Source: an uncultured Spirochaetales bacterium
Lineage (GTDB): Bacteria; Myxococcota_A; UBA9160; UBA6930
NCBI GenBank assembly: GCA_964501435.1
Contig: CAZCTH010000001.1
Coordinates: 2,656 to 66,655, forward strand
Direction of reading: 5' to 3'
DNA: 64,000 bases
Made by a program: the position numbers and the translations under genes. Positions 12,650-30,996 of the stretch are shown piece by piece. Numbering within the stretch: the stretch's first letter is position 1; the number at the start of each line of letters is the position of its first letter. The notes under the pieces are model-generated. The model did no database searches and was not told the origin of the DNA. It saw only the letters and a program-made list of their open reading frames with translations.

Positions 12650-15073
12650 ATGCTTCGAGAGCACCGCACTCGCGCGCATGGGTTGCCGGACTTACTGAAC
12701 TTCGCGGCCCTCGTCGACGAAGGCGTCGTCCTCAACAAGGACGGATCGTTCCTCACCGCGTGGTGGTATGCCGGGCCCGACATGGAGTCCGCGAGCACGG
12801 TCGAGCTCGCCGCGCTCTCATCGCGCGTGAACGCGGCGCTGCTGAGGCTCGGCAACGGCTGGATGCTCCAATCGGACGCGATCCGCCGGCCGAGCGCTGG
12901 CTACGCGCCGCCCGGCGCATTCCCCGATGCAACGACGGCCGTAGTCGATGCGGAACGCCGCGCACAATACGAGAACGCCGGCGCCGGTTTCGAGAGCCTC
13001 TACGCACTCACCGCTGTTTGGCTTCCGCCGCGTGACGTGCAGGATCGCGTCGCGGGATGGTTCGTCGATGAGCCCGAGCGTAGAGTGGACGGATACGAGG
13101 GCGTGCTCCGCGCCTTCGTCCGAAGCGTCGAGGAGATCGAGGATGCACTTGCGGGCGCGCTGACGCTCGCACGCATGAACTCGGGCGATCTGCTCAGCTT
13201 CCTGCACTACTGCGTTACGACGGACCTGCAGGACATCCGCGTCCCCGGGACGCCGATGTATCTCGACGCGCTGCTCGGCTCCCGAGACCTCGTCGGCGGA
13301 TTCAAGCCGCGAGTCGGCACTCAGCGCCTCTGCGCGATCGCGCTGATCGGCTTCCCGGGTGAGACGTTTCCGCAGATCCTGAGCGGGCTCGGCCAGCTTT
13401 CGCTCTCGTTCCGATGGTCCAACCGGTTCGTGTCGCTGGACCCTGCAACTGCCGAGGCGCGCCTCAGGGTGATGCGTCGCAACTGGTTCCAGAAGCGCCA
13501 AGGGCTCTCGGGCTTGCTCAAGCAGGCCCTCTCGCTTGGCGAACCCACGTTTTCCAATCGCGATGCGGTCGCGATGGCGGAGGATGCGGACGAGGCGGTG
13601 CAGGAAGCCGCCTCGGGCGCAGTCCGCTTTGGGTACTTCACGAGTGTCGTGCTGCTCGCCGGCAGTGACGAGGCTGCGCTCGACGCAGCCGCGCGCCAGG
13701 TGCGGCGCCTCCTGCAGCACTGCGGATTTGCCTCGCGCGTCGAGGAAATGAACGCGCTCGAGGCGTACCTGGGGACGATCCCCGGACACGGGCACCGGAA
13801 CCTTCGGCGCCCGCTCGTGCACACGCTCAACTTCGCGGACCTGATCCCAACGACCAGCGTCTGGCCTGGTCTCGAAACAAACCCGAGCCCGCTTTTCGCC
13901 GCGCGTAGCCCCGCCTTGTTATACGCCCGCACCTCGGGCGCGACACCGTTTCGCCTGAACCTCCACGTCTCGGACGTCGGTCATACGCTCGTGATCGGCC
14001 CAACCGGTTCGGGCAAGACGACGCTGATCGGCCTCCTGATCGCCCAGTTCTTCCGCTACGCGGGCGCGCAGGTGTTCGCATTCGACAAGGGGCACGGCCT
14101 GGAGACGCTGGTGCGTGCCGCCACGGGCGATCACTACGACCTCGGCGGCGAGTCCTCCGAAGGCGGGCTCGCGTTGTGTCCGCTCAGCAACATCGATCGC
14201 CCAGGCGAGCGGCCGTGGGCCGCGGAATGGTTGGAGACGGTCGTGCGCCTTCAGGGGCTCACCGTTACGCCCGAGCATCGTCGCGCCGTTCAGATCGCGC
14301 TCGAGCGCCTCGCCGAGAGCCCCGCGCGTTCGCTCACGGACTTCGCGACTACCGTGCAGGACCGCGAGGTCCGCGCGGCGCTTAGGCACTACACGCTCGA
14401 GGGCGCACTGGGCGCACTCCTCGACGCGGAGCGCGACGGCCTCGGCACGGCCGCGTTCCAGGTCTTCGAGATGGAGCGACTCCTCAATCTCGGCGACGCG
14501 AACGCGACGCCGGTGCTCACTTGCCTCTTTCACCGGATCGAGGAGCGCCTCGACGGGCAACCCACGCTGATCGTGATCGAGGAGGCGTGGCTCGCGCTCG
14601 GGAACGTGCTCTTCGCCGAGAAGCTCGAGGAGTGGCTGCGCGTTCTGCGCAAGCGCAACGCGGCGGTCGTCTTCGTGAGCCAGAGCCTCGCCGAGGTGGT
14701 TGCGTCGCCGATGTGCGCCCTCTTGCTCGAGAGCTGCCCGACGAAGCTGTTGCTCCCAAACCCTGAAGCGCGGACGCCCCAGACGAGCTCCCTGTACCAG
14801 CGGATCGGGCTCACCAATCGGCAGATCGAGCTGATCGCGAGTGCAGTGCCGAAGCGCGAGTACTACTACGCGTCGCCGCTTGGGCGGCGCCTCATCGATC
14901 TCGGCCTCGGGCCGGTGGCGCTCTCGTTCGTCGGCGCCGCGAGCCCGGAAGAACTGCGCGAGGCGCGCGCTCTCCAGGTCGCGCACGGCACGGATTGGCC
15001 CGCAGCGTGGCTCAGCGCGCGCGGAGTCAGCGACTGGGCAGCTCTCTGGCAAGAACTCAAAGGAGAAACGTGA
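12650..15073 (+). CDS. trbE: TrbE/VirB4 conjugal transfer ATPase
   Basis: 807 aa with Walker A GPTGSGKTT and Walker B-like LIVIEEAW, in the synteny position of VirB4. Confidence 0.92.
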   Translation: MLREHRTRAHGLPDLLNFAALVDEGVVLNKDGSFLTAWWYAGPDMESASTVELAALSSRVNAALLRLGNGWMLQSDAIRRPSAGYAPPGAFPDATTAVVDAERRAQYENAGAGFESLYALTAVWLPPRDVQDRVAGWFVDEPERRVDGYEGVLRAFVRSVEEIEDALAGALTLARMNSGDLLSFLHYCVTTDLQDIRVPGTPMYLDALLGSRDLVGGFKPRVGTQRLCAIALIGFPGETFPQILSGLGQLSLSFRWSNRFVSLDPATAEARLRVMRRNWFQKRQGLSGLLKQALSLGEPTFSNRDAVAMAEDADEAVQEAASGAVRFGYFTSVVLLAGSDEAALDAAARQVRRLLQHCGFASRVEEMNALEAYLGTIPGHGHRNLRRPLVHTLNFADLIPTTSVWPGLETNPSPLFAARSPALLYARTSGATPFRLNLHVSDVGHTLVIGPTGSGKTTLIGLLIAQFFRYAGAQVFAFDKGHGLETLVRAATGDHYDLGGESSEGGLALCPLSNIDRPGERPWAAEWLETVVRLQGLTVTPEHRRAVQIALERLAESPARSLTDFATTVQDREVRAALRHYTLEGALGALLDAERDGLGTAAFQVFEMERLLNLGDANATPVLTCLFHRIEERLDGQPTLIVIEEAWLALGNVLFAEKLEEWLRVLRKRNAAVVFVSQSLAEVVASPMCALLLESCPTKLLLPNPEARTPQTSSLYQRIGLTNRQIELIASAVPKREYYYASPLGRRLIDLGLGPVALSFVGAASPEELREARALQVAHGTDWPAAWLSARGVSDWAALWQELKGET

Positions 15074-18644: not shown

Positions 18645-19916
18645 GTGTCTGATCCCAACGACGATGTTCGAAGACCGCCAGCCGATCCGATCGACCTCAA
18701 TTCCGAGCCGCGCGTGACGCGCCTGAATCGCAGAGCAATCGGCGTACTTGCCGCGGCGCTCTGCGCGGCCCTCCTCGCCGCAGTATTCACGCTGTCGCAG
18801 CGAAGCCAGCAAGCGGAGCAACGCACGAAGGAGAGCAGCCGCCCGAGCGCGACGCCGGATCGATTCTGGGAGGATGCACCCGACGGCACACCGGGGCTGC
18901 TCGCGCCGCCCGAACCGGTGCCGGAGCTCGTCGAGCGCGAGACGCCTTTCTTCGAGGCCGGCGATTCAGGGTTCCAGAACGCCAGCGAGGCGATGAGTCC
19001 GGAGGAGCAGATCCTCGAGCGCGCGCGTCGCTCGCCGATCGTCGTGTACGAAGGGAAGGAAGCAGAGGCGACAGTCGCCGGGGGATGGGCCGCGTCACGG
19101 CTGGCGGGCGAGCCGGGCTCGCCGCCGAGAGACGGGATCGCCGAGACGTCGTTGGGCGCGATCGCCAACCTCGGCGCCCCCGAAGATCCTGTCGTCGCCC
19201 AGAACCTTCAGCACGAGAAGCGCGACTTTCTCGACGACGCTGGCCAATCGCAAGAAGAGACGATCGCTCATCGAGTCCGCACCCCGTCGTCGCCCTACGC
19301 CGTGCTCGCGGGAGCAGTCATCCCCGCGGTCCTCGTAACCGAAGCGCGCTCCGATCTGCCGGGGCAGGTGATCGCTCAGGTGCGCGAGTCCGTCTTCGAC
19401 ACGCCGACCGGCGCGCACCTCCTGATTCCACAGGGCACGCGGGCAATCGGAGAGTACGACAGCGTCGTTGCGTTCGGGCAGGAGCGCGTACTCGTCGCGT
19501 GGCAGCGCTTGCTCTTCCCCGACGGATCGAGCCTCACCTTGGGAGCGATGCCAGGCACCGACGCTGCTGGCGCCGCGGGGCTACACGATCGCGTCGACCG
19601 ACATTTGCTTCGGACGTTCGGCAGCGCGGCGCTCCTCAGTGCGATCAGCGCCGGCGCGCAGCTCTCTCAAGGAACGTTCGGTAGTGGCGCGGGCAGTAAT
19701 GCGCCGACCGACGCGCGCGAGATCCTGGCCGCCGCGCTCGGCCAGAACCTCGCCGAGCTCGGCACCGAGATGACGCGACGCAACCTAAGCGTTCAGCCTG
19801 CCCTCGAGATCCGAGCCGGGTACCGCTTCAACATTGCGGTTGTGAAGGACCTCGTGTTGCCTGGGCCGTACGCGGACGATCTCGCGCTCACCGCGCCATC
19901 AGGAGGACCACGATGA
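18645..19916 (+). CDS. trbI: TrbI/VirB10-family protein
   Basis: 423 aa with an N-terminal TM helix, a Pro-rich linker and the conserved C-terminal VirB10 domain (ATLVTEARSDLPGQVIAQV...LEIRAGYRFNIAV). Confidence 0.9.
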   Translation: MSDPNDDVRRPPADPIDLNSEPRVTRLNRRAIGVLAAALCAALLAAVFTLSQRSQQAEQRTKESSRPSATPDRFWEDAPDGTPGLLAPPEPVPELVERETPFFEAGDSGFQNASEAMSPEEQILERARRSPIVVYEGKEAEATVAGGWAASRLAGEPGSPPRDGIAETSLGAIANLGAPEDPVVAQNLQHEKRDFLDDAGQSQEETIAHRVRTPSSPYAVLAGAVIPAVLVTEARSDLPGQVIAQVRESVFDTPTGAHLLIPQGTRAIGEYDSVVAFGQERVLVAWQRLLFPDGSSLTLGAMPGTDAAGAAGLHDRVDRHLLRTFGSAALLSAISAGAQLSQGTFGSGAGSNAPTDAREILAAALGQNLAELGTEMTRRNLSVQPALEIRAGYRFNIAVVKDLVLPGPYADDLALTAPSGGPR

Positions 19917-20146
19917 AGCTCCACCGCCGCAAACCCGAGGAGCCGCCTGTCGAGATTCGCATCACCGTTCCTGCTGAGACGGTCGCCGAGTTGAAGGCGT
20001 ACGGGCAGTACTACGAAGCGACCTACTCGGACGCGATTGCGCTTCCGGTGCTGATCGTCGAGATCGTCCAGCAATACCTAACCCGCGAGCGGGGCTTTCG
20101 CAGCTGGGTCCGCACGGTCGGGGCAAGCCAGCGCGCGGTCGAGTGA
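19913..20146 (+). CDS. DUF2274-family small protein (typical last gene of Trb-type ICE transfer operons)
   Basis: 77 aa with an ATGA overlap with trbI. The sequence KLHRRKPEEPPVEIRITVPAETVAELKAYGQYY fits my recollection of DUF2274. Confidence 0.65.
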   Translation: MKLHRRKPEEPPVEIRITVPAETVAELKAYGQYYEATYSDAIALPVLIVEIVQQYLTRERGFRSWVRTVGASQRAVE

Positions 20147-20148
20147 GA

Positions 20149-20174
20149 GTCGGGGACGGCGACACGACCCCGAC
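20149..20174 (+). terminator. GC-rich hairpin immediately after the trb operon (no U-tract)
   Basis: GTCGGGG (20149-20155) pairs with CCCCGAC (20168-20174) across a 12-nt loop. It begins 3 nt after the DUF2274 stop codon. Confidence 0.35.
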
Positions 20175-20202
20175 CGCACGGTTCCTAAACCGCGTGTCGT
20201 CA

Positions 20203-20226
20203 GTTCGACTCCGGCCGGGGGCGCCA
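20203..20226 (+). other. tRNA 3'-end-like fragment; candidate att-site remnant
   Basis: Covers the T-loop, 3' T-stem, 3' acceptor strand, discriminator and CCA. Reads GTTCGACT-CCGGC-CGGGGGC-G-CCA. No matching 5' acceptor strand (GCCCCCG), D-arm or anticodon arm could be folded upstream. Confidence 0.4.
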
Positions 20227-20237
20227 ATAATCAACGC

Positions 20238-20280
20238 GACCCCGGGGACTTACGGTCCTCGGGGTCGTCGTGTGTTTGGG
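20238..20280 (+). terminator. strong hairpin followed by a T-containing tail (terminator-like)
   Basis: GACCCCG (20238-20244) pairs with CGGGGTC (20260-20266), with an inner GGAC/GTCC helix, followed by GTCGTGTGTTTGGG. It lies 11 nt after the tRNA-like CCA. Confidence 0.4.
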
Positions 20281-20601
20281 GCAGCTGGGAAAAGGAAGGG
20301 GCTAGGAAGGTTCTGCGTTGGCGACCCCGCCCGGCAGAGGGCCCAGTTGACGCTCCGCGTTCGCGACGATACGCTGGCCGCGGCGAGGCCGAGCGGAGCG
20401 AAGGCCGAAGCCAAGGCTCTTGACAGCCACGCGGCCTTTGCCAGCTTCCGCGACTTGGTCGACCGGACCCCTCGCCGGGCGAGCCAGAGAACGGCCGGCG
20501 CCCCCAGCGCCACCCGGCGGCGAGAACACCGACGAGTTCGAACTGGGACCTCCGGCACTTTGCGTGCTTCGGCGATGCCGAGCCGCGCTGGAAACCCCCT
20601 A

Positions 20602-21735
20602 ATGACCTACGAACCGTCGCTCGACCTCCGCCACCCAGGCGCCGAGCTCGACTGGTTGCTTCTGCTCATCACGCAGAAGCTCCAGCTCTCGCCCACGCAG
20701 CAGCAAACCGCGGCCGATCGGTATCAGGCTGTCGGGCGCTACCTGCAGTCGAGGGCACCGATCCTTCGGATGGACCTATACGCGCAGGGATCGATGGCGC
20801 TCGGCACCACGGTCAAGCCGAAGGGCGGCGGCGAGTACGACCTCGACATCGTGCTCGAGATCCAGCGATTTCCCTCCGAGAGCCCGTTGGACTTGCACCA
20901 GTGGCTGGTCGACGCGCTGCGCGCGAGCGGGACGTACCGCGACCTCGTCGAGCCCAAGAAGCGCTGCGTGCGGTTGAACTACGCCGGCGACTTCTACATG
21001 GACGTGCTGCCGGCTCGTCCCGACCCGAATCCTGCGAAGTCCCGGCTCTACCGCGAGACCTGCATCCTCGTGCCGGACACAAAGTTGGAGGCCTGGACCG
21101 GAAGCAACCCGCGCGGCTTCGTGCGCTGGTTCGAGGGTCAATGCAGCGAGGACGCGCTCCGCTTGCGCGCTGCGCAGCAGCCACTGCCTGAAGCCGAGCC
21201 CGCGCACAGGAAGGCGGTCCTGCAGCAGCTCGTGCAGCTGGTGAAGCGCCATCGGGTGATGTGGTTCGGGGACGACAACGACGACGCGCCGCGCTCGATC
21301 GTGCTCACCACTCTCGCCGCGCACTTCTACCACGGCGAGCCCGTCCTGTTCGAAGCGCTCCGCGGCGTCGCCGCACGGATTCTCGCCGCGCTCCCGCCGG
21401 AGCCTCCGCAGGTGCGGAACCCGACCAACTTCGACGAGATTTTCTCGGAGCAGTGGATCGCAAAGCCCGCGACCTACGACGCATTCGTCCGCTGGATGCG
21501 GCAGTTCCATGCGCGCATCGCGAATCTTCCGCGCCTGCTCGGGCCCGCGCTCGACGACGAGATGCGAAGCCTGTTCGGCGAGGTCGCACGCGACGCGCGC
21601 GCTGCGCTGACCGAGCGGGTGGCACAAGCGCGGGCGGCGCAGCAGCTGCGGGCCACGCGGAGCGGACTCACGACGGCCGCGGGCGCTGGCGCGCTGGTCC
21701 GACCCAACACCTTTTTCGGGGGCGACCACGAGTAG
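20602..21735 (+). CDS. CD-NTase / SMODS-family cyclic-oligonucleotide synthase (CBASS cyclase)
   Basis: Pol-beta NTase triad QGS(63-64)MALGTTVKPKGGGEYD(80)LD(82)IVLEI plus third acid FYMD(134)VLPA. Also the N-terminal helix LSPTQQQTAADRYQAVGRYL, SNPRGFVRWF and PRSIVLTTLAAHFY. Start could be ATG 20602 or ATG 20575. The 153 in-frame codons upstream are Arg-rich non-coding sequence. Confidence 0.8.
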   Translation: MTYEPSLDLRHPGAELDWLLLLITQKLQLSPTQQQTAADRYQAVGRYLQSRAPILRMDLYAQGSMALGTTVKPKGGGEYDLDIVLEIQRFPSESPLDLHQWLVDALRASGTYRDLVEPKKRCVRLNYAGDFYMDVLPARPDPNPAKSRLYRETCILVPDTKLEAWTGSNPRGFVRWFEGQCSEDALRLRAAQQPLPEAEPAHRKAVLQQLVQLVKRHRVMWFGDDNDDAPRSIVLTTLAAHFYHGEPVLFEALRGVAARILAALPPEPPQVRNPTNFDEIFSEQWIAKPATYDAFVRWMRQFHARIANLPRLLGPALDDEMRSLFGEVARDARAALTERVAQARAAQQLRATRSGLTTAAGAGALVRPNTFFGGDHE

Positions 21736-21796
21736 GCGACCTCTAACGGCTGCGGTCCAGTACGCGGGCCTCGAAGCCATCGGCTTCAAGGGCTCG

Positions 21797-22150
21797 GTGC
21801 GGCGCAACAGGCTCGTGGTGCGCGGGCCGGTGCAGCCGAAGGCGCTCAGCGAGACATACGGAGTCCGCATCGAGTACACGGAAGGGGATTCGCCCGACGT
21901 CTGGGTGGAGGACCCGCCGCTGCGGCCTCGCGAACCTGGCGGCGCGATCCCACACGTCTACCCCGGCCTACGCCTCTGCCTGCATCTGCCCGGCGCGGGC
22001 GAGTGGACGCCGGCCGATGCCATCTCGAAGACGACGGTCCCGTGGGCGGCGATTTGGCTGCTGTTCTATGAGGACTGGCTCACAACAGGCGAGTGGCGTG
22101 GCGGTGGAGTCCATCCGGACCCTGGCGACACGAAGCTGGAGGGCAAATAG
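21797..22150 (+). CDS. stand-alone E2 (UBC)-like protein, CBASS ancillary
   Basis: 117 aa with a beta-rich N-half followed by IPH(53)VYPGLRLC(61)LH and EWTPADAISKTTVPWAAIWLLFYEDW. This resembles the E2 HPN..C flap and W-x-P helix. GTG is the only available start. Confidence 0.55.
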   Translation: MRRNRLVVRGPVQPKALSETYGVRIEYTEGDSPDVWVEDPPLRPREPGGAIPHVYPGLRLCLHLPGAGEWTPADAISKTTVPWAAIWLLFYEDWLTTGEWRGGGVHPDPGDTKLEGK

Positions 22151-23151
22151 TGCGCCGCGTCCTCGCGATCGACGGCGGCGGCATCAAGGGCGTATTCGCG
22201 GCGGCCTTCCTCGCTCGGATCGAGGACCACATCGAGGGCAGCGTCGGCGACTACTTCGACTTGATCTGCGGCACCTCGACCGGCGGAATCCTCGCCCTCG
22301 GCCTGGCGTCGGGACTCTCGGCGCAAGACATCCTCGGCTTTTACCAGAAGCACGCCCAGGACATCTTCGGCCCCGCGCCATCGCATTGGCGTGCGATCCG
22401 GCGGCTGTGGCGACCCAAGTTTGACTCGGCGCCGCTCCATCGAGCGCTGCGCGAGCACTTCGGCGATCGCCGACTACGCGACTGCAACCGCCGCCTCGTC
22501 GTCCCAAGCCAGGTGTTGGAAACCGGCGACGTCCACATCTACAAGACTCCTCATCATCCGCGCCTCGTCGACGATGTCGACAGGACGTTGGTCGACGTCG
22601 CCATGGCTACGGCGGCAGCGCCGACCTACTTCGCCGCGCATCGTCCCGCCGGCTGTGCACTCCTGGTCGACGGCGGAACATGGTCAAACAACCCGGCAGG
22701 TGTCGCGGCGACAGAGGCCGTCGGGGTGCTTGGATGGGATCGGAAAGAGACGCGGCTCTTGAGCGTCGGGTGCACCGAAGAACCGTGGGACCCGACGCGA
22801 GTCCGGAACACGACGTTTGAAGGTGCTGCTTGGCTCCAGCACGCCCACACGCTGATGATGAAGGGACAGTCGTTCGGGGCGTTGGGTACGGCCAAGAGTT
22901 TGTTGGGCGCCGAGAACGTGCACAGAATCTCTGCTGTCGTTGCGCCCAATCGGTTCACGCTCGACGACGCGAGCACGGTGGACGATCTCGTCGACCTCGG
23001 CCGGGTTGAAGCCCGCACTGCGATTTCACAGGTGCGCGAGAGGTTCTTCGACACGCCGGCCGAACCCTTGCTATCTCTGCCTTCCCCACCCCGATCAACT
23101 CCGCCGGGCGCAACCGAGATGGAAGGCGCCAGGTGGTCGGGGACGTCATGA
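22150..23151 (+). CDS. capV: patatin-like phospholipase effector (CapV-like)
   Basis: RVLAIDGGGIKG oxyanion motif, GTSTG nucleophile elbow and LLVDGGTWSNNP catalytic Asp. GTG at 22150 overlaps the E2 stop (TAGTG). The alternative ATG at 22093 would add 19 atypical residues. Confidence 0.88.
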   Translation: MRRVLAIDGGGIKGVFAAAFLARIEDHIEGSVGDYFDLICGTSTGGILALGLASGLSAQDILGFYQKHAQDIFGPAPSHWRAIRRLWRPKFDSAPLHRALREHFGDRRLRDCNRRLVVPSQVLETGDVHIYKTPHHPRLVDDVDRTLVDVAMATAAAPTYFAAHRPAGCALLVDGGTWSNNPAGVAATEAVGVLGWDRKETRLLSVGCTEEPWDPTRVRNTTFEGAAWLQHAHTLMMKGQSFGALGTAKSLLGAENVHRISAVVAPNRFTLDDASTVDDLVDLGRVEARTAISQVRERFFDTPAEPLLSLPSPPRSTPPGATEMEGARWSGTS

Positions 23152-25640
23152 CGCACTCGCTCGTAGAGCCGGTTGATTTCTTTCGCATTGACGCCAGCAG
23201 CAAGCTCGTACCTGTCCGGCGCGCCGAACTCGGCCAATTCCTGACGACCGCACCCGTCGCGCGCCTCATGGCCGGGATGTTCGAGCGTCGCCCGCGCGAG
23301 GTCAGGTTGCTCGATGCTGGGGCCGGCGTGGGCAGCCTCACAGCCGCCTTCGTGGAAGCCGCGATCAGTTGGGACCCGAAGCCCGAGCGAATCGTCGCAA
23401 CCGCCTACGAGGTTGATCCGGCCCTCGTGCCCTACCTCAAGGACTCCCTGCGACTCTGCGGGGACGCCTGTGCGGCTTCGGGCATCGCCTTCGAGAGCAC
23501 CGTCGAGGGCGAGGACTTCGTGGAGGCGGCCGTCGCGATGCTGGACGGCGGGCTCTTCGCGCGCCCAACAACTCGCTTTAACGCCGCGATCCTGAACCCG
23601 CCGTACCGAAAGATTCACTCCGCATCCGAGGCGCGCAGGCTGGTTCGCGCCGTCGGGGTCGAGACCTCGAACCTCTATACGGCGTTTCTCTCGCTCGTCG
23701 TCAAGCTGCTGGAACCGGGCGGCGAGCTCGTCGCGATCACGCCGCGCAGCTTCTGCAACGGGCCGTACTTCAGGCCCTTCCGTGAACTCTTCCTCGCGAA
23801 CATGGCGATCCACCGCGTGCACGTCTTCGACGCGCGGGACCGAGCCTTCGCGGACGACGCGGTCCTGCAGGAGAATGTCATCCTGCAAGCCCTACGGGGT
23901 GAACCGTCGCCTAGCCGAGTGGTCATCACGGCGAGCTCCGCGCCCGACGAGGACATGACCATCCGGCGCGTGTTGCCGGGCGAGTTAGTGCGCCCGGGCG
24001 ATCCCGAGCAGTTCATCCGAGTTGTTACTGACGACCTCGGTGCGCGGATCGCCGAACGAATGGAGAGCCTGCCGGCGACCCTCTCCGACTTGGACGTCGA
24101 GGTCTCGACCGGCCGCGTCGTCGACTTCCGCGCGAGCGAGCATCTGCGGGCGGAGCCGAGCCGCGACACCGCGCCGCTTATCTATCCCGGCCACTTTTCG
24201 AGTGGCTTCGTCGAGTGGCCGAAGCTCGGCGGTAAGAAGCCGAACGCCCTCGCGGCCGTTCCCGAGACGCTCTCGCTCCTGATGCCGCCGGGCGTCTACG
24301 TCCTGGCGAAGCGCTTCTCGTCCAAGGAGGAGCGCCGACGCGTGGTCGCCGCGGTCTACGACTCGGCGCGGATCGACGCGGGGGACGTCGGGTTCGAGAA
24401 TCACCTGAACGTCTACCACCGACGAGGAGCGGGCCTTCCGGAGGCGCTCGCCAAGGGGCTCGCGCTCTTCCTGAACTCGTCGCTCGTCGATCTCTACTTC
24501 CGCCAGTTCAGCGGGCACACACAGGTGAACGCGACCGACCTAAGAAGTTTGCGCTACCCGAGCAGCGAGGCGCTTGAACTTCTGGGCGCTTCGGTCGGCG
24601 AGGCCATGCCGGGGCAGGACGAGGTCGACCGGCGATTGCGAGAGGGGGTGTTCGGAGTGGCGACTGATCCGGTGAGCGCGAAACGGAAGCAGGACGAGGC
24701 GCTCTCGATCTTGAAGGCGTTGGGGTTTCCAAAGGCTCAGCTGAACGAGCGCTCGGCGCTCACCCTCCTCGCGCTGCTTGACCTGAAGCCCGAGTCGGAG
24801 TGGCTCGCTGCACGCGATCCGCTGATGGGTATCCGCCCGCTCATGGACTACTTCAAAGAGCACTACGGCAAGGTGTACGCGGAGAATTCCCGCGAGAGCG
24901 TCAGGCGCTTCACGATTCACCAGTTCCTCGAAGCCGGCTTGATCGTGCGGAACCCGGACGACCCAGAGCGCCCGACCAACAGCGGGCTCTACGTTTATCA
25001 AGTCACGCAGCCGGCGCTGGACCTCGTGCGCACGTTTGGACTGCCTGCCTGGGGCGCGAACCTCGCCACCTACCTTGCTAAGCGCCCCGGGCTCGCGAAG
25101 AAGTACGCGAGCGAGCGCGAGCAGCGGCGGATTCCGGTGACGCTGCCGACGGGCCAGACACTCTCGCTCTCGCCCGGCGGGCAGAACGAGCTCGTCAAGA
25201 AGATCCTCGAGGAATTCTGCCCGCACTTCACGCCGGGCGGTCACGTGCTCTACGTCGGCGACACGGGCGACAAGTGGGCGATCTCGGATGCCGCGGGCCT
25301 CGCGGCGCTCGGGGTAGAGGTAGACCTGCACGGGAAGATGCCGGACGTTGTCGTCCGCCACGTCGAGAAGAACTGGCTTGTGCTCATCGAGGCGGTCACC
25401 AGCCATGGGCCCGTGGACGGCAAGCGCCACGGCGAGCTCCGGACGGTCTTCTCGGGCGCGAAGGTGGGGATCGTCTACGTCACGGCGTTCCTCGACCGAA
25501 AGGCGCTCGCCAAGTACGTCGCGCAAATCTCCTGGGAGACCGAGGTGTGGGCCGCCGACTCGCCGACCCATCTCATCCACTTCGATGGCGAGCGGTTCCT
25601 CGGTCCGTACCCACCGGACGGAGGCTCGCACGCCGGCTGA
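23148..25640 (+). CDS. single-chain restriction-modification enzyme: N6-adenine methyltransferase fused to a BsuBI/PstI-family endonuclease
   Basis: N-half: FLTTAPVARLM, LLDAGAGVGSL (SAM motif I) and ILNPPYRKI (motif IV). C-half: ALSILKALGFPKAQLNERSALTLLALLDL (the BsuBI/PstI N-domain) and GKMPDVVV..LVLIEAVTSHGP (PD..ExK-like core). ATG at 23148 overlaps the capV stop (ATGA). Confidence 0.75.
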   Translation: MTHSLVEPVDFFRIDASSKLVPVRRAELGQFLTTAPVARLMAGMFERRPREVRLLDAGAGVGSLTAAFVEAAISWDPKPERIVATAYEVDPALVPYLKDSLRLCGDACAASGIAFESTVEGEDFVEAAVAMLDGGLFARPTTRFNAAILNPPYRKIHSASEARRLVRAVGVETSNLYTAFLSLVVKLLEPGGELVAITPRSFCNGPYFRPFRELFLANMAIHRVHVFDARDRAFADDAVLQENVILQALRGEPSPSRVVITASSAPDEDMTIRRVLPGELVRPGDPEQFIRVVTDDLGARIAERMESLPATLSDLDVEVSTGRVVDFRASEHLRAEPSRDTAPLIYPGHFSSGFVEWPKLGGKKPNALAAVPETLSLLMPPGVYVLAKRFSSKEERRRVVAAVYDSARIDAGDVGFENHLNVYHRRGAGLPEALAKGLALFLNSSLVDLYFRQFSGHTQVNATDLRSLRYPSSEALELLGASVGEAMPGQDEVDRRLREGVFGVATDPVSAKRKQDEALSILKALGFPKAQLNERSALTLLALLDLKPESEWLAARDPLMGIRPLMDYFKEHYGKVYAENSRESVRRFTIHQFLEAGLIVRNPDDPERPTNSGLYVYQVTQPALDLVRTFGLPAWGANLATYLAKRPGLAKKYASEREQRRIPVTLPTGQTLSLSPGGQNELVKKILEEFCPHFTPGGHVLYVGDTGDKWAISDAAGLAALGVEVDLHGKMPDVVVRHVEKNWLVLIEAVTSHGPVDGKRHGELRTVFSGAKVGIVYVTAFLDRKALAKYVAQISWETEVWAADSPTHLIHFDGERFLGPYPPDGGSHAG

Positions 25641-26324: not shown

Positions 26325-26804
26325 ATGGCAACAACAACTCGCGACGGCATCCACTTCATCCGCGTGGTCGCAGTCCGCTACACCGGGCCGCGGCGGCGAT
26401 CGCCCGAGACGGTCCGCGCTCCGCGCGAGGCGACGGCGGTCATGCGCCGCATCATCCTCGACGACGCGCGCGAGCACTTCATCGCGCTCTACCTCGACGG
26501 CCGGCACCACGCGATCGCGCTCCAGGTCGTCTCGATCGGCACCGCGACTGCGTCGCTCGTCCACCCGCGCGAGGTCTTCCAGTCCGCAATCCTAATCGGC
26601 GCGTGCGGCGTGATCGTCGGCCACAATCACCCGTCGGGCGATCCGAGCCCGAGCCCCGAGGATCGCCAGATCACGCGTCGAATCGCCGACGCGGGCAAGC
26701 TCCTCGGCATCCCGCTGCTCGACAGCGTCGTGTGGGGCCACGGCGTTTCGTACGTCTCGCTGCGAGAGATCGCGCCGGACCTCTTCGGCTCGAGCGCAGA
26801 CTGA
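26325..26804 (+). CDS. radC: RadC-like JAB/MPN-domain protein
   Basis: JAMM motif GHNHPSGDPSPSPED, a RadC-type C-terminal half, and SD-like GGAGGG 7 nt upstream of the ATG. Confidence 0.88.
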   Translation: MATTTRDGIHFIRVVAVRYTGPRRRSPETVRAPREATAVMRRIILDDAREHFIALYLDGRHHAIALQVVSIGTATASLVHPREVFQSAILIGACGVIVGHNHPSGDPSPSPEDRQITRRIADAGKLLGIPLLDSVVWGHGVSYVSLREIAPDLFGSSAD

Positions 26805-28406: not shown

Positions 28407-28925
28407 CTACTTACGCGGCTGGCGTTCGCCTGAGCCACCATTCACGGCCGGAGCTGCTGCCGGAGCGAAGGCGTCCGAAGTGCGTGCGGCGTGCTCATCC
28501 ACCGCCGTCAGCCACGCGCGATGCCGCGCCGAAGCACTCTGTGAACGCGTTGCTCGCAGCTCGGGCGGAACCTCTGGCATGTGCAGCATCAGCCCGAAGT
28601 AGAGCCGATCGAGCATCGCCTCGGCTCGCGCAATCCGTAGGTCGATCGAAGCAAGAGTGTCCGTGTGGTCGTCGATCCGGGCGGCGATCCGCGCCTCGAG
28701 TTCGAGCAATGGCAGGGGCACGCGCCGCGGCGCATCGGTGTCGGCCGGGAGGAACCGCACCGCCTCCGCGGTCACGTCTCGCGCGGCGAAGGCCTCCGCG
28801 AGAGCAGTGCGAACGATTTCCGAGAGCCGCTCCCCGGTCGCAGCCGCCTCGCGCAGCATCCGCTGGTAGAGCGCCTCGGCGATGTGCGTGCGCACTTCGT
28901 ACTGCTTCCGTCGTTCATTGCTCAT
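28407..28925 (-). CDS. ribbon-helix-helix (CopG-like) protein following traG
   Basis: Start moved to the ATG at 28925 (MSNERRKQYEVRTHIAEALYQRMLREAAATGERLSEIVRTAL is an RHH-type N-terminus). It overlaps the traG stop by 11 nt. Confidence 0.6.
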   Translation of the reverse strand: MSNERRKQYEVRTHIAEALYQRMLREAAATGERLSEIVRTALAEAFAARDVTAEAVRFLPADTDAPRRVPLPLLELEARIAARIDDHTDTLASIDLRIARAEAMLDRLYFGLMLHMPEVPPELRATRSQSASARHRAWLTAVDEHAARTSDAFAPAAAPAVNGGSGERQPRK

Positions 28926-30996
28926 GCTGCGCTCCCGAGCGCGCGCTCTCACCGAACATCTTCTCTTGCGCGAGGAGTTGCTCCGGCGCAACTACCGTCG
29001 AGGCGGCGCCCGCTGTCCAAGGGCACGCGCGGGAACGCAGCCGATCCGACTCCCGCGGCGCAGCGATCGCCGCTCGTCGCGCGAACTCTGCGTTCTCGAA
29101 GTACCGCAGCTTGCTTGCGAGAATCGGCCGAGCGCCGGCGACGAAGACCAGTGCAGCGTCGGCCGGCAGGCGCATGGCTTCGTCAGGCGTCAGCAGAGCC
29201 CGGTGCGACTCCTGCTCGGATGCGAGCACGTGCATGAGCACTGGGTTGAGGCGATTTCCCGTGTACGTGCGGCTCTCCTTGTGCACGGTCATCGCACCCG
29301 CCATGTCTGACAAGAGTCGCGCTGTCTCGACGCGATTCGGAGCGAAAGCGACGCGGACATGGCAGTTCGACACGATGCTCTCGTCGCGGCCGTACGCGGC
29401 GTAGAGCTGCGAAAGGTCCTGCACGATGAGGAACGCCTGAATCCCGTAGCCGGACAGGTACGAGAGCTGACTCTGGAAGAAATCGAGCCGCCCGAGCGTC
29501 GGGAACTCATCCATCAGCAGAAGAAGCTGGCGGCGGTCCCGCCGACCGTTGCTGTCCGGCGCGTGCAGTTCTTCCGTCAAACGCCGCCCGACCTGCTGGA
29601 TCAGAAGCCGGGTCAGCGACCGTGTGCGCGCTAGATCTGACGGCGGAACGGTCAGGTAGAGGCTCACGGTGCGATCGGGGCGAACCAGGTCGGCGATGCG
29701 AAAATCGCAGGCGGATGTGTTCGCGGCCACGATGTCGTCGTGGTAGAGGCTAAGGAACTTCGTGGCCGAGGAGAGCACGCTCGACCGCTCGTTCTCGGAC
29801 TTGTTCTTCAGCGATCGCGCAGCACGCGCGACCGCGGGGTGCGTCGGCGTGGCTTCCCCGGTTGTTGGGTCGTGCCATCCGCGCGTCAGGCCAGGATCGT
29901 GCGGCGCATTGAGCATCTCATCGAGCACGGTGCCGATCGTGCGGCTCGGGTCCGTGAGGAAGTCGAGGCAGCCGCGCAAGCTCTTGTCGGGTCGCACGTA
30001 GAGCACGTGCAGAATCGTGCCCGCGAGAACTTCCTGCGCAGTGAGATCCCAGTGGTCCTTCGTGCCCGCGCCATCCGGATCGACGAGCATGTCGGCGATC
30101 GTCTGAACGTCGCGCACTTCGAACGGCCCGCGCCGCACCTCGAGCAACGGGTTGTATCGCGCGGCGCTTCCGTCGGCGCAGGTGGGGTCGAAGCGCAGGC
30201 AAGTGCTGCCGAGCTCGCGCTGGCGAAACCCCGCGGTGAGCGACCAGTTCTCGCCCTTCACGTCGTTCACGAGCACGGAGTGCGGCCAGGTAAGAAGCGT
30301 CGGGATCACCCAGCCGACGCCTTTGCCCGAGCGCGAAGGCGCGAAGCCGAGGACGTGTTGAGGCCCGGCGTGGCGAAGTGGGAGCTCGCGCCGGCCGCGC
30401 TGCCAGACGCCGACGTAAATGCCTTGCCGACCCAACAGCCCCGCAGCTTCGACATCGAGATCGGACGCCCATCGTGCAGAGCCGTGCAGGTCGCTCTTGC
30501 CGCCGACCCGCCGCGCTCGCCGCACGGCGATCGCGATTCCAACGATGAAGACGAAGTGCGCCGGTACTCCAATCAGCCAGTGGCCGGTGCGAAAGATCGC
30601 GTCGGTAGCGGGTGTGCTCGCGAAGCGGAGCTCCCAGATGAAGAAGTCCCAGGGTGCGTAGATCGGGCCGAGCCACGCCGCTGCCGCGGCGATCGCCGCA
30701 ACCGTCGAGGGAGCGGCGAACCGACGTGCGGGCACATGAAACGTGGACAGGAATGCAACCGCTGCGAGTAGAACAGCGAAGGCAGCGAGCGCGACACGCG
30801 CATCGGGCGACGCCGTGAGCAGTGGCGCGCCGAGCGCGCGTTGGAAGCCGAATCGCCACGCGGTCCATTGCGTCGTCGCCCACAGAACGAGAACGATGGT
30901 TGCGGCTACCGAAATCAGCGAGGCGAAGAGAACGCCGGCCGCACTGTTGCCGTCGGTGCCGCCGGGCAGGCGATAGAGAGCGAGTCTTTTCTGCAC
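28915..30996 (-). CDS. traG: TraG/VirD4 type IV coupling protein
   Basis: 693 aa with N-terminal TM helices, a P-loop-like FAPSRSGKGVGWVIP and the conserved LLLLMDEFPTLG (Walker B region) typical of T4CPs. Confidence 0.9.
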   Translation of the reverse strand: MQKRLALYRLPGGTDGNSAAGVLFASLISVAATIVLVLWATTQWTAWRFGFQRALGAPLLTASPDARVALAAFAVLLAAVAFLSTFHVPARRFAAPSTVAAIAAAAAWLGPIYAPWDFFIWELRFASTPATDAIFRTGHWLIGVPAHFVFIVGIAIAVRRARRVGGKSDLHGSARWASDLDVEAAGLLGRQGIYVGVWQRGRRELPLRHAGPQHVLGFAPSRSGKGVGWVIPTLLTWPHSVLVNDVKGENWSLTAGFRQRELGSTCLRFDPTCADGSAARYNPLLEVRRGPFEVRDVQTIADMLVDPDGAGTKDHWDLTAQEVLAGTILHVLYVRPDKSLRGCLDFLTDPSRTIGTVLDEMLNAPHDPGLTRGWHDPTTGEATPTHPAVARAARSLKNKSENERSSVLSSATKFLSLYHDDIVAANTSACDFRIADLVRPDRTVSLYLTVPPSDLARTRSLTRLLIQQVGRRLTEELHAPDSNGRRDRRQLLLLMDEFPTLGRLDFFQSQLSYLSGYGIQAFLIVQDLSQLYAAYGRDESIVSNCHVRVAFAPNRVETARLLSDMAGAMTVHKESRTYTGNRLNPVLMHVLASEQESHRALLTPDEAMRLPADAALVFVAGARPILASKLRYFENAEFARRAAIAAPRESDRLRSRACPWTAGAASTVVAPEQLLAQEKMFGESARSGAQHEQ

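What the first reader, a model, noticed from the sequence alone, without database searches (positions are those of the whole stretch)
21797..22150. Stand-alone 117-aa E2/UBC-like protein with no E1 or JAB partner; cyclase ends in ...FFGGDHE
Seen: the protein carries IPH53-VYPGLRL-C61-LH (Cys codon at 21977-21979). This is followed by EWTPADAISKTTVPWAAIWLLFYEDW, which mirrors the E2 HPN-flap/catalytic-Cys and W-x-P/helix-2 arrangement. The operon has no adenylating (E1) or JAB gene. The cyclase C-terminus is ...RPNTFFGGDHE, a Gly-Gly three residues before the end. Established: in full type II CBASS, the Cap2 E1-E2 fusion conjugates the cyclase C-terminus and Cap3 (JAB) reverses this. Inference: an E2 without an E1 needs either a host or ICE activating enzyme or a different chemistry. 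A GG-plus-short-tail terminus would also need trimming, as in ubiquitin-like precursors.
Basis: partly seen in the sequence, partly recalled or inferred. Interest (0 to 1): 0.72.

Follow-up and report, generated by a model that had tools for sequence, protein, structure and literature searches.

The report
Known E1-free CBASS E2 regulator
The one oddity is that the gene has no normal start codon for its first helix.

Summary
The ORF at 21797-22150 is real and is an E2-CBASS protein (Pfam PF26395). PADLOC E2 models match at E 1e-40. A family profile matches the Serratia marcescens E2 structure (8hsb_B) at E 7.6e-39, and the AlphaFold model matches 8yjy_B at TM 0.78.

It lies between a CdnG-like cyclase (20602-21735) and a CapV patatin phospholipase (22150-23151). 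This is a three-gene "type II short" CBASS carried as cargo on a conjugative element. No E1 or Cap3-type JAB gene is present.

In this family the E2 is a Cys/His protease-transpeptidase. It cuts off the residues after a conserved C-terminal glycine of the cyclase and links that glycine to itself, with no ATP or E1.

The window keeps His53 and Cys61 (invariant in 157/157 homologues), His106 and Lys113. The cyclase motif NTF[F/Y/H]G is followed by 1-13 residues in 94 of 94 motif-bearing homologues and is never terminal. The conserved glycine is therefore the first G of "GG", and the tail is GDHE.

One new detail: helix alpha-1 is encoded in frame upstream of the annotated GTG and evolves as coding sequence. 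It has no ATG, GTG or TTG start. An ACG at 21728 sits exactly where relatives have ATG.

The parts
20602..21735 (+). CD-NTase (CdnG-like cyclase), 377 aa, ATG start. The longer ORF from 20143 is not supported.
   Evidence: Pfam SMODS and DncV-like NTFase; PADLOC Cyclase E 1.5e-85, with the profile starting at residue 169 of the 530-aa ORF. Gene calls on identical contigs give 377 aa. phmmer to SmCdnG 8hsb_A gives E 6.3e-30, aligning residues 19-373 to 21-406. The AF2 model has pLDDT 91.7, and its best PDB hits are 8yjy_A/8hsb_A (TM 0.76) and BdCdnG 7ljn.
21718..21720 (+). Codon of the conserved C-terminal glycine (G373, in NTFFG). This is the predicted site of cleavage and attachment, equivalent to SmCdnG G406.
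   Evidence: The phmmer alignment ends at 373 against 406. G373 is at least 90% conserved in 68 cyclases. The motif NTF[FYH]G is present in 47 of 48 cyclase C-termini recovered upstream of the E2 gene at the 55 genome loci and in 94 of 120 cyclase homologues.
21721..21732 (+). Four-residue tail GDHE after the conserved Gly. It is predicted to be released by the E2.
   Evidence: Tail length is 1-13 aa in 94 of 94 motif-bearing homologues and never 0. SmE2 removes E407, MBP or GFP placed after the Gly.
21728..22150 (+). Proposed full E2-CBASS gene (140 codons) starting at a near-cognate ACG. It overlaps the last codons of the cyclase and includes helix alpha-1 (RRPLTAAVQY, 21734-21763).
   Evidence: The in-frame upstream peptide aligns with homologue N-termini. 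In the AF2 model alpha-1 is residues 8-17, with block-mean pLDDT of 85-98. The ACG is the positional homologue of the ATG in L065/L066, at the same distance from the stop and from the G-rich SD-like run. The 21 codons before the GTG evolve as coding sequence (P 0.008, 0.0014, 0.0004). Use of this start is an inference.
21797..22150 (+). E2 ORF as flagged and as annotated (117 aa from the first canonical start, GTG). It lacks helix alpha-1.
   Evidence: P0001, 117 aa, PF26395. The DNA is identical on two other contigs.
21953..21955 (+). His53 codon (CAC), equivalent to the catalytic His87 of SmE2.
   Evidence: Invariant in 157/157. Aligned to the IPH motif of 8hsb_B. Function taken.
21977..21979 (+). 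Cys61 codon (TGC), equivalent to the catalytic Cys101 of SmE2.
   Evidence: Invariant in 157/157. Aligned to RLC of 8hsb_B. Function taken.
22112..22114 (+). His106 codon (GGGVH), equivalent to SmE2 His152, the pH-sensing His of the C-terminal loop.
   Evidence: His in 131/157. Alignment. Function taken.
22133..22135 (+). Lys113 codon, 7 residues after His106, the same spacing as SmE2 H152-K159. Candidate isopeptide acceptor.
   Evidence: The Lys position varies across the family, so this assignment is tentative.
22150..23151 (+). CapV-type patatin phospholipase effector, 333 aa. Its GTG start overlaps the E2 stop (TAGTG), and a GGAGG lies upstream.
   Evidence: Pfam Patatin E 6.6e-31. NCBIfam CBASS_lipase 245.6 bits against a cut-off of 200. 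PADLOC phospholipase effector E 2.5e-95. Sequence context.
20236..20268 (+). Terminator-like hairpin after the DUF2274 gene. It separates the T4SS operon from the CBASS operon.
   Evidence: This is a consensus scan only: one site found, 1.6 expected by chance.

Best explanation
The gene is the E2 regulator of a three-gene "E2-CBASS" (type II short CBASS) anti-phage operon: CdnG-like cyclase, then E2, then CapV phospholipase. The operon is cargo on a conjugative element.

The following mechanism is inferred by homology to the S. marcescens system. The E2 docks on the cyclase's C-terminal helix and small beta-sheet. The flexible tail ...VRPNTFFG|GDHE threads into the E2 active site. Cys61, assisted by His53, attacks the peptide bond after Gly373. 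The tetrapeptide GDHE is released and a cyclase~E2 thioester forms. The energy comes from the peptide bond, so no E1 or ATP is needed. The acyl group can then move to a lysine, either in the E2's C-terminal loop (candidate Lys113) or on another cyclase molecule, which regulates nucleotide-signal synthesis. On infection, the signal (probably a cGAMP isomer) activates CapV, which destroys the membrane.

The functional E2 probably includes helix alpha-1 and starts at the near-cognate ACG at 21728, coupled to termination of the cyclase. It probably does not start at the annotated GTG.
For: Shown here:
- Family membership by profile: PF26395, PADLOC E2 at E 1e-40, and PDB 8hsb_B at E 7.6e-39.
- Fold: AF2 pLDDT 84.7, with topology alpha1-beta1-4-loop(Cys)-alpha2. 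The top Foldseek hits are 8yjy_B/8hsb_B (TM 0.78/0.74), followed by weak UFC1, UBE2H and UEV matches.
- Catalytic residues: His53 and Cys61 are invariant in 157/157, and His106 is present in 131/157.
- Cyclase: it aligns end to end with SmCdnG, G373 to G406. Its model's best hits are SmCdnG and BdCdnG, and it has helix 328-345 followed by three short strands and a floppy tail.
- C-terminal motif: NTF[FYH]G plus 1-13 residues is seen in 47/48 genomic neighbours and in 94/94 motif-bearing homologues, and the Gly is never terminal.
- Context: no E1 or Cap3 gene is in the window. The effector passes the NCBIfam CBASS_lipase cut-off.

From the literature:
- E1- and ATP-free cleavage and ligation, and the roles of C101, H87, K159, H152 and G406.

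For the ACG start:
-.
- ACG can initiate with Met in E. coli, at about 0.1-1% of AUG (bioRxiv 10.1101/063800).
Against: - Nothing biochemical was tested on this protein.
- It shares only about 37-39% identity with SmE2.
- The Lys acceptor position is not conserved across the family.
- Published work has framed the net effect of conjugation differently. The 2023 preprint says poly-cGASylation activates; the title of the 2024 paper says only that the E2 "regulates".
- SmCdnG works with a 2TM-SAVED effector, not CapV, so the signal molecule here is unknown.
- There is no canonical start before alpha-1, and ACG is a very weak start in E. coli. An alpha-1-less product from GTG 21797 (AAGGG lies 4 nt upstream) could be the main or only product, and it might be unstable.
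Confidence: 0.84

Rival explanations
1. The E2 gene is decaying. It lost its ATG start (ATG to ACG), so it is either not made or made as an alpha-1-less, unstable 117-aa fragment. The operon would then behave like a two-gene type I CBASS.
For: There is no ATG, GTG or TTG between the upstream stop (about 21608) and 21797. Intact homologues with the helix nearly all have a canonical start. One relative (L064) carries a frameshift in a C8 run inside its E2, and L037, L055 and L056 look truncated.
Against: - The ORF is intact, with every catalytic residue.
- The DNA is identical on three contigs.
- The start-less state is shared with L062, whose cyclase is only 64% identical. Even so, the 21 codons upstream of the GTG keep their amino acids through 7 purely synonymous codon changes (P 0.008).
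- L058 has ATT at the homologous position.
- The SD-like run plus 5-nt spacing is retained.
- The E2 stop overlaps the capV start.
Confidence: 0.1
2. A classical cascade operates. A host or ICE-encoded E1-like adenylating enzyme (for example a ThiF/MoeB family protein) activates the trimmed cyclase C-terminus and hands it to this E2. A separate protease does the trimming.
For: Full type II CBASS works this way, with Cap2 (an E1-E2 fusion) and Cap3 (PMC10097602, listed). The genome outside the window was not examined.
Against: - The homologous SmE2 reacts with its cyclase in plain buffer without ATP or any other protein, and it removes C-terminal extensions itself.
- The family-specific catalytic His is conserved here.
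- The Gly is never terminal in 94/94 homologues. This fits transpeptidation and would be a pointless burden for an E1 route.
- No ThiF or JAB gene is in the window.
Confidence: 0.03
3. The cyclase and E2 are made as one polypeptide. Ribosomal frameshifting at CC-TTT-TTC-GGG-GGC (21709-21723) would give ...NTFFG-ATTSRRPLTAAVQY..., mimicking the natural cyclase-E2 fusions.
For: - Natural fusions exist: P0041 (564 aa...NTFYGGKSKN...E2) and PADLOC model PDLC00816.
- The E2 frame is open from 21611.
- The T5 and G5 runs would allow +1 re-pairing.
- The window, L062 and L058 all have the E2 in the +1 frame.
Against: - L061 also lacks a start but has the E2 in the -1 frame, so no single slip explains the group.
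- GGG-G arises trivially from Gly followed by Gly, Asp or Glu codons.
- There is no stimulatory hungry or stop codon at the site.
- An open off-frame is expected at 68% GC.
- The ATG-bearing relatives (L065/L066) show that the ancestral arrangement was separate genes with overlapping start and stop.
Confidence: 0.03

Closest known systems
Serratia marcescens E2-CBASS: SmCdnG (cGAS) plus SmE2 (PDB 8HSB, 8YJY, 9KKB; Yan et al. Nat Microbiol 2024; Xiao et al. mLife 2026)
   Same: - Same Pfam family (PF26395).
- Same minimal UBC core, with a C-terminal loop in place of helices alpha-3/alpha-4.
- Same catalytic His and Cys, and the same GGG-x-H...K C-terminal loop.
- The cyclase is of the same CdnG type, with a C-terminal helix plus small sheet and the ...NTF(F/Y)G-x tail.
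- No E1 or JAB partner.
   Different: - E2 identity is only about 37-39% and cyclase identity about 26%.
- The His-to-Cys loop is 6 residues shorter (8 against 14 positions). A loop of this length is common in the family.
- The tail after the Gly is 4 residues (GDHE) instead of 1 (E).
- The effector is a CapV patatin lipase rather than 2TM-SAVED plus an exonuclease.
- The gene lacks a canonical start codon for helix alpha-1.
Full type II CBASS (Cap2 E1-E2 fusion plus Cap3 JAB; Ledvina et al. and Jenson et al., Nature 2023)
   Same: An E2-fold Cys accepts the cyclase C-terminus as a thioester, and conjugation tunes cyclase output.
   Different: There is no adenylation (E1) domain and no JAB isopeptidase. 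In type II, the cyclase C-terminal Gly or Ala is activated with ATP. Here the bond energy comes from cleaving a peptide bond, and the E2 has the extra catalytic His.
Eukaryotic UBC-family E2 enzymes (for example UBE2D2/UbcH5B, UFC1)
   Same: The alpha1-beta4-Cys loop-alpha2 core fold, and a Cys in the equivalent position. Foldseek gives weak hits to UFC1, UBE2H and TSG101-UEV.
   Different: - No HPN motif and no Pfam UQ_con hit.
- No alpha-3/alpha-4 helices.
- No E1 or E3 interaction is needed.
- It acts as protease, E2 and ligase in one protein.
Natural cyclase-E2 fusion proteins of CBASS (PADLOC PDLC00816; P0041, 564 aa)
   Same: The same two domains in the same order. The junction keeps NTFYG-G followed by a short linker and helix alpha-1.
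   Different: Here the two are separate reading frames (E2 is +1 relative to the cyclase), with a stop codon between them.

Membership tests
E2-CBASS E2 (Pfam PF26395; PADLOC 'E2') | Significant match to the family profiles and to the solved member. | tested here: met
   PF26395 is precomputed on the identical protein P0001. PADLOC E2 models score E 9.5e-40 to 3e-19. A profile against PDB 8hsb_B scores E 7.6e-39. The local Pfam and NCBIfam copies gave no hit.
E2-CBASS E2 (Pfam PF26395; PADLOC 'E2') | Minimal UBC fold (alpha1, four beta strands, Cys loop, alpha2), with a C-terminal loop in place of alpha-3/alpha-4. | tested here: met
   AF2 model of the 140-aa form: pLDDT 84.7, with H8-17, E21-25, E28-35, E44-51, E57-62 and H103-120, and a disordered tail at 128-140. 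Foldseek matches 8yjy_B at TM 0.78, probability 1.0. Alpha-1 is present only if translation starts upstream of the annotated GTG.
E2-CBASS E2 (Pfam PF26395; PADLOC 'E2') | Catalytic Cys (SmE2 C101) together with the family-specific catalytic His (SmE2 H87). | tested here: met
   Cys61 and His53 align to RLC and IPH of 8hsb_B. Both are invariant in 157/157 representatives.
E2-CBASS E2 (Pfam PF26395; PADLOC 'E2') | C-terminal loop with the second His (H152) and an acceptor Lys (K159). | tested here: met
   GGGVH106 and K113 sit at the same +7 spacing. The His is present in 131/157. The Lys position varies in the family, so its role here is inferred.
E2-CBASS E2 (Pfam PF26395; PADLOC 'E2') | Encoded directly after a CD-NTase in an operon without an E1 domain or a JAB gene. 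| tested here: met
   The cyclase stop is at 21735, the E2 follows, and the capV start overlaps the E2 stop. No ThiF or Prok-JAB hit was found among about 36 window ORFs. The RadC-like JAB at 26325-26804 has no PADLOC hit.
E2-CBASS E2 (Pfam PF26395; PADLOC 'E2') | ATP-independent covalent linkage to the cyclase, with removal of the residues after the Gly. | not testable with these tools
   Known only for SmE2. Testing it here needs purified proteins.
E2-associated CdnG-type CD-NTase | CD-NTase fold with the GS...[DE]xD active site, closest to clade G structures. | tested here: met
   SMODS and DncV-like NTFase. The motif G63-S...E78-Y-D80-L-D82 is present. The model has pLDDT 91.7, and its best hits are SmCdnG (TM 0.76) and BdCdnG 7ljn. 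No formal clade phylogeny was done.
E2-associated CdnG-type CD-NTase | Extra C-terminal helix plus a three-stranded sheet that recruits the E2. | tested here: met
   The model shows H328-345, then short strands at about 350, 356 and 364, then a low-confidence tail. This matches the description in PMC12948482. It is a prediction only.
E2-associated CdnG-type CD-NTase | Conserved Gly near the C-terminus, followed by at least one residue. | tested here: met
   G373 in NTFFG|GDHE. The Gly is at least 90% conserved. It is seen in 47/48 genomic neighbours. The tail is 1-13 aa in 94/94 and never 0.
Full type II CBASS (Cap2 + Cap3) | E1 adenylation domain fused to the E2. | tested here: not met
   The protein has at most 140 aa. 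The PADLOC E1-E2 model matches only a 29-residue stretch around the Cys, at E 4.7e-4. No ThiF domain is present in the window.
Full type II CBASS (Cap2 + Cap3) | Cap3 JAB/JAMM isopeptidase in the operon. | tested here: not met
   No such gene lies between 20143 and 25640. The RadC-like protein matches Pfam RadC at 125 bits, Prok-JAB only at 16.6 bits (below its cut-off of 25), and no PADLOC model.
Canonical UBC/UQ_con E2 | HPN motif upstream of the Cys, and a match to Pfam UQ_con. | tested here: not met
   The sequence is I-P-H-V-Y-P-G, with no Asn after the His. There was no Pfam hit at E 0.01. Foldseek matches to UBC-fold proteins are weak (E of 0.28 or higher).

The most novel reading that the evidence does not exclude
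In this small clade, the E2 gene is translated from a near-cognate start codon: ACG in the window and in L062, AUU in L058. This codon replaced the ancestral AUG, lies 5 nt before the cyclase stop, and sits 5 nt after a G-rich Shine-Dalgarno-like run formed by the Phe-Gly-Gly codons. A deliberately weak, termination-coupled start would hold the E2 far below the level of the cyclase it modifies. That would be a built-in stoichiometry control, and a rare natural ACG start in bacteria.
Probability: 0.4. Interest if true: 0.45.

Novelty: new member of a known kind. Interest (0 to 1): 0.25.

Why it matters
For the question as posed, it matters little. E1-free E2 regulation of CBASS cyclases, including self-trimming of the tail after the conserved glycine, was published in 2022-2026, and this operon fits that description feature by feature.

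Three useful by-products came out of the check.

- An annotation warning. E2-CBASS genes are often called too short (113-124 aa) because their starts overlap the cyclase end or are non-canonical.
- Comparative support for transpeptidation chemistry. The conserved glycine is never the last residue in 94 of 94 homologues.
- A testable candidate for natural near-cognate (ACG/AUU) initiation that could set the E2:cyclase ratio.

Tried and rejected
- The local Pfam-A and NCBIfam libraries gave no hit for the 117-aa protein. The family model PF26395 appears only in the precomputed annotations.
- Two metagenome scans for closer relatives found nothing: the search for related loci with A4 and a degenerate YEDWL[AT]TGEWRGGG DNA pattern.
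- Megablast of 19900-23200 against plasmids found nothing. tblastn found 84 plasmids with E2 relatives, all below 60% identity and mostly annotated "hypothetical protein".
- One search used an out-of-frame reference and is void. One search, the cyclase C-terminal 144 aa alone, gave no sequence-level match to SmCdnG. This agrees with the published remark that the C-terminal motif is conserved in structure rather than in sequence.
- The listing of cluster members gave no names or accessions, so the organism remains unidentified.
- The frameshift-fusion idea was considered and set aside, because the E2 frame is +1 in three start-less relatives but -1 in a fourth.
- CTG at 21686 was considered as a start and judged unlikely. 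It would add about 14 unconserved residues, and the start of relatives maps to 21728.
- RadC as a surrogate Cap3 was rejected, for lack of any PADLOC hit and because of its position beyond the restriction-modification gene.
- A multimer model of the E2 with the cyclase tail could not be run with these tools.

Full report
**1. What is in the sequence**

The window has 68% GC. His53 is CAC at 21953-55 and Cys61 is TGC at 21977-79.

Upstream lies a cyclase ORF ending ...VRPNTFFGGDHE*, with its stop at 21733-35. Its real start is the ATG at 20602, giving 377 aa. The PADLOC cyclase profile begins only at residue 169 of the longest ORF, and gene calls on identical contigs give 377 aa.

Downstream, a 333-aa patatin phospholipase starts at the GTG at 22150, overlapping the E2 stop (TAGTG), with GGAGG upstream. 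It passes NCBIfam's cut-off for "CBASS cGAMP-activated phospholipase" (245.6 bits against 200).

Two other contigs carry identical DNA across the cyclase-E2 junction, so the sequence there is not a read error.

**2. Genomic context**

The operon is cargo in a conjugative element.
- Upstream: a UvrD-like helicase, a VirB11-like ATPase, the 807-aa ORF at 12650-15073 read by eye as VirB4-like, further T4SS ORFs up to a TrbI-family protein, and DUF2274.
- Downstream: a fused methyltransferase and BsuBI/PstI-type endonuclease (23133-25640), a RadC-like JAB protein (26325-26804), DUF6908, the 693-aa minus-strand ORF at 28915-30996 read by eye as a T4SS coupling protein, and a relaxase.
- The rest of the window encodes regulatory and catabolic enzymes.

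No ThiF/E1 domain and no Cap3-type JAB were found in about 36 ORFs scanned. The RadC-like protein does not match any PADLOC model.

**3. Identity of the protein**

- PADLOC E2 models match at E 9.5e-40.
- The identical database protein carries Pfam PF26395, "E2-CBASS".
- A profile of seven homologues finds a single PDB sequence, the E2 of the S. marcescens CdnG-E2 complex (8hsb_B, 8yjy, 9kkb), at E 7.6e-39.
- An exhaustive profile search finds 1755 cluster representatives, typically 140-170 aa.
- The AlphaFold2 model (pLDDT 84.7) has the minimal UBC topology. Its best structural matches are 8yjy_B and 8hsb_B (TM 0.78 and 0.74, probability 1.0). UFC1, UBE2H and UEV domains follow at weak scores.
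- His53 and Cys61 are invariant in 157 of 157 aligned family members. His106 (GGGVH) is present in 131 of 157. Lys113 lies 7 residues after His106, the same spacing as H152-K159 in SmE2.

The fold is UBC-like, Cys and His are conserved, and a C-terminal Gly is conserved.

**4. The cyclase**

It aligns to SmCdnG from residue 19 to 373 against 21 to 406, which places G373 opposite the experimentally defined G406. A model built on 68 homologues has pLDDT 91.7. Its best matches are SmCdnG (TM 0.76) and Bradyrhizobium CdnG. After the catalytic core it shows a long helix (328-345), three short strands and a low-confidence tail. This is the E2-recruiting motif described in PMC12948482.

Of the 55 genome loci encoding an E2 relative, 48 yielded an upstream cyclase C-terminus, and 47 of those carry the motif NTF[F/Y/H]G followed by a few residues. 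In 120 cyclase homologues, 94 carry the motif. The tail after the Gly is 1 aa (33 cases), 2 (35), 3 (5), 4 (5), 5 (10), 6 (2), 9 (3) or 13 (1), and never zero. A second Gly follows in only 12. The window should therefore be read as NTFFG|GDHE.

**5. The mechanism is already published**

- The preprint 10.1101/2022.05.25.493364 (published as Yan et al., Nat Microbiol 2024;9:1566, doi 10.1038/s41564-024-01684-z; citation seen) counts 616 E2-only CBASS systems.
- It shows that S. marcescens cGAS and E2 become covalently linked in plain buffer.
- G406 of cGAS and C101 of the E2 are required. A thioester converts to an isopeptide on E2 K159.
- The E2 itself removes E407, or a fused MBP, using C101 and H87. 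H152 governs pH-dependent interconversion. These histidines are specific to E2-CBASS E2s.
- Xiao et al. (PMC12948482) confirm removal of a GFP fusion. They describe three non-covalent interfaces and note that cyclase-E2 fusion proteins occur naturally.

**6.

PADLOC profiles align only from position 31-33 onward, so about 30 N-terminal residues seemed to be missing. The frame is open upstream to 21611. It reads ...ATTSRRPLTAAVQYAGLEAIGFKGS before the GTG, and this aligns with the N-termini of homologues (MRF-DRPRPLTAAQQYLNLR...). In the model, this stretch forms helix alpha-1 at high confidence.

Almost every intact homologue has a canonical start 5-9 codons before this helix, next to or overlapping the cyclase stop. 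The window has none.

The window's closest relatives fall into two groups.
- Start-less, like the window: L062 (cyclase 64% identical, ...NTFFGGDHG*), L058 (E2 58% identical) and L061.
- With a canonical start: L063, L064, L065 and L066 have ATG, and L060 has GTG.

Codon by codon, L065 and L066 read GCG ACG ATG AGT AGC, where the window reads GCG ACC ACG AGT AGG. Both have the same distance to the cyclase stop and the same G-rich run 5 nt upstream. L062 also has ACG at this position, and L058 has ATT. The T-to-C change is silent in the cyclase frame, because CAT and CAC both encode His.

The 21 codons between the helix and the annotated GTG keep their amino acids far better than randomly placed substitutions would allow. 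Against L062, L058 and L063 they show 11/21, 11/21 and 14/21 identical residues despite 25, 28 and 22 nucleotide differences, with 7, 5 and 9 codons differing only synonymously (P 0.008, 0.0014, 0.0004). These comparisons share the window sequence and are short, so they are indicative rather than proof.

ACG can initiate with Met in E. coli at roughly 0.1-1% of AUG (bioRxiv 10.1101/063800). My preferred reading is a weak, termination-coupled near-cognate start at 21728, giving a 140-aa E2. An alpha-1-less product from GTG 21797 cannot be excluded.

Gene callers also truncated relatives that do have an upstream ATG. L059, for example, was called at 113 aa.

**7. Rivals**

- Decay of the E2 gene is possible but fits poorly with the intact ORF, the conserved catalytic residues and the coding constraint.
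- A host E1 is unnecessary given the published two-protein reaction and the never-terminal glycine.
- A frameshift fusion is unlikely because the frame relationship is not consistent among the start-less relatives.

**8. Verdict**

This is an ordinary, uncharacterised member of a known system (E2-CBASS, also called type II short CBASS) with a CapV effector, carried on a conjugative element. Interest is low, apart from the candidate near-cognate start codon.

Noticed in passing
window 21611-21796 (especially 21728-21763): Helix alpha-1 of the E2 is encoded in frame upstream of the annotated GTG, with no ATG, GTG or TTG before it. The ACG at 21728 is the positional homologue of the ATG of relatives L065/L066. 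L062 shares the ACG and L058 has ATT at that position.
   Followed up: yes
window 21181-21192 (cyclase residues 194-197, inside the low-pLDDT loop at about 186-200): The only disordered internal loop of the cyclase model carries a PLPE motif, and its two prolines are at least 90% conserved in 68 homologues. A 2026 preprint (PMC12991175) reports that phage prohead proteases activate clade G CD-NTases by cutting a disordered loop containing an LPE motif. This could be the infection sensor here.
   Followed up: partly
window 23133-25640 (+): An 835-aa single-chain fusion of an Eco57I-type methyltransferase with BsuBI/PstI endonuclease domains (PADLOC MTase_II, E 1e-262). Its start overlaps the end of capV by 19 nt, so CBASS and a restriction-modification enzyme form one small defence islet.
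   Followed up: partly
window 26325-26804 (+): A RadC-like JAB-domain protein (Pfam RadC, 125 bits) lies 3.2 kb downstream of the CBASS operon. It is the only JAB fold in the window. It has no PADLOC hit, is typical of conjugative-element leading regions, and is not a Cap3.
   Followed up: partly
window about 8700-33000: Conjugative-element backbone around the defence genes: a UvrD-like helicase, a VirB11-like ATPase, the 807-aa ORF at 12650-15073 (VirB4-like by eye), T4SS ORFs up to a TrbI-family protein, DUF2274, DUF6908, the 693-aa minus-strand ORF at 28915-30996 (coupling-protein-like by eye) and a relaxase (31079-32959, -). A terminator-like hairpin at 20236-20268 separates the transfer operon from CBASS.
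   Followed up: partly
L059 1147-1488; L061 1750-2091; L058 375-812: Public gene calls for E2-CBASS genes are often N-terminally truncated (113-145 aa). In L059 an upstream ATG overlapping the cyclase end was missed. This suggests a systematic annotation artefact for the family, and it may explain the short (110-position) PADLOC E2 model PDLC00873.
   Followed up: partly
L064 about 1830-1850: A relative's E2 gene is split by a frameshift in a run of eight C. This is either an assembly error or a pseudogene. Its loop VPHVYPGLRLCLY is the same short form as in the window.
   Followed up: no
P0041 (564 aa): A natural cyclase-E2 fusion keeps ...PKNTFYG-GKSKNAYFNSSG... at the junction. The cleavable Gly motif therefore sits inside a single polypeptide, which implies self-processing of the fusion.
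   Followed up: no
window 34100-62700: A long block of catabolic genes: nitronate monooxygenases, luciferase-like monooxygenases, amidohydrolases, a Rieske ring-hydroxylating oxygenase, acyl-CoA dehydrogenases and enoyl-CoA hydratase. It is unrelated to the finding.
   Followed up: no
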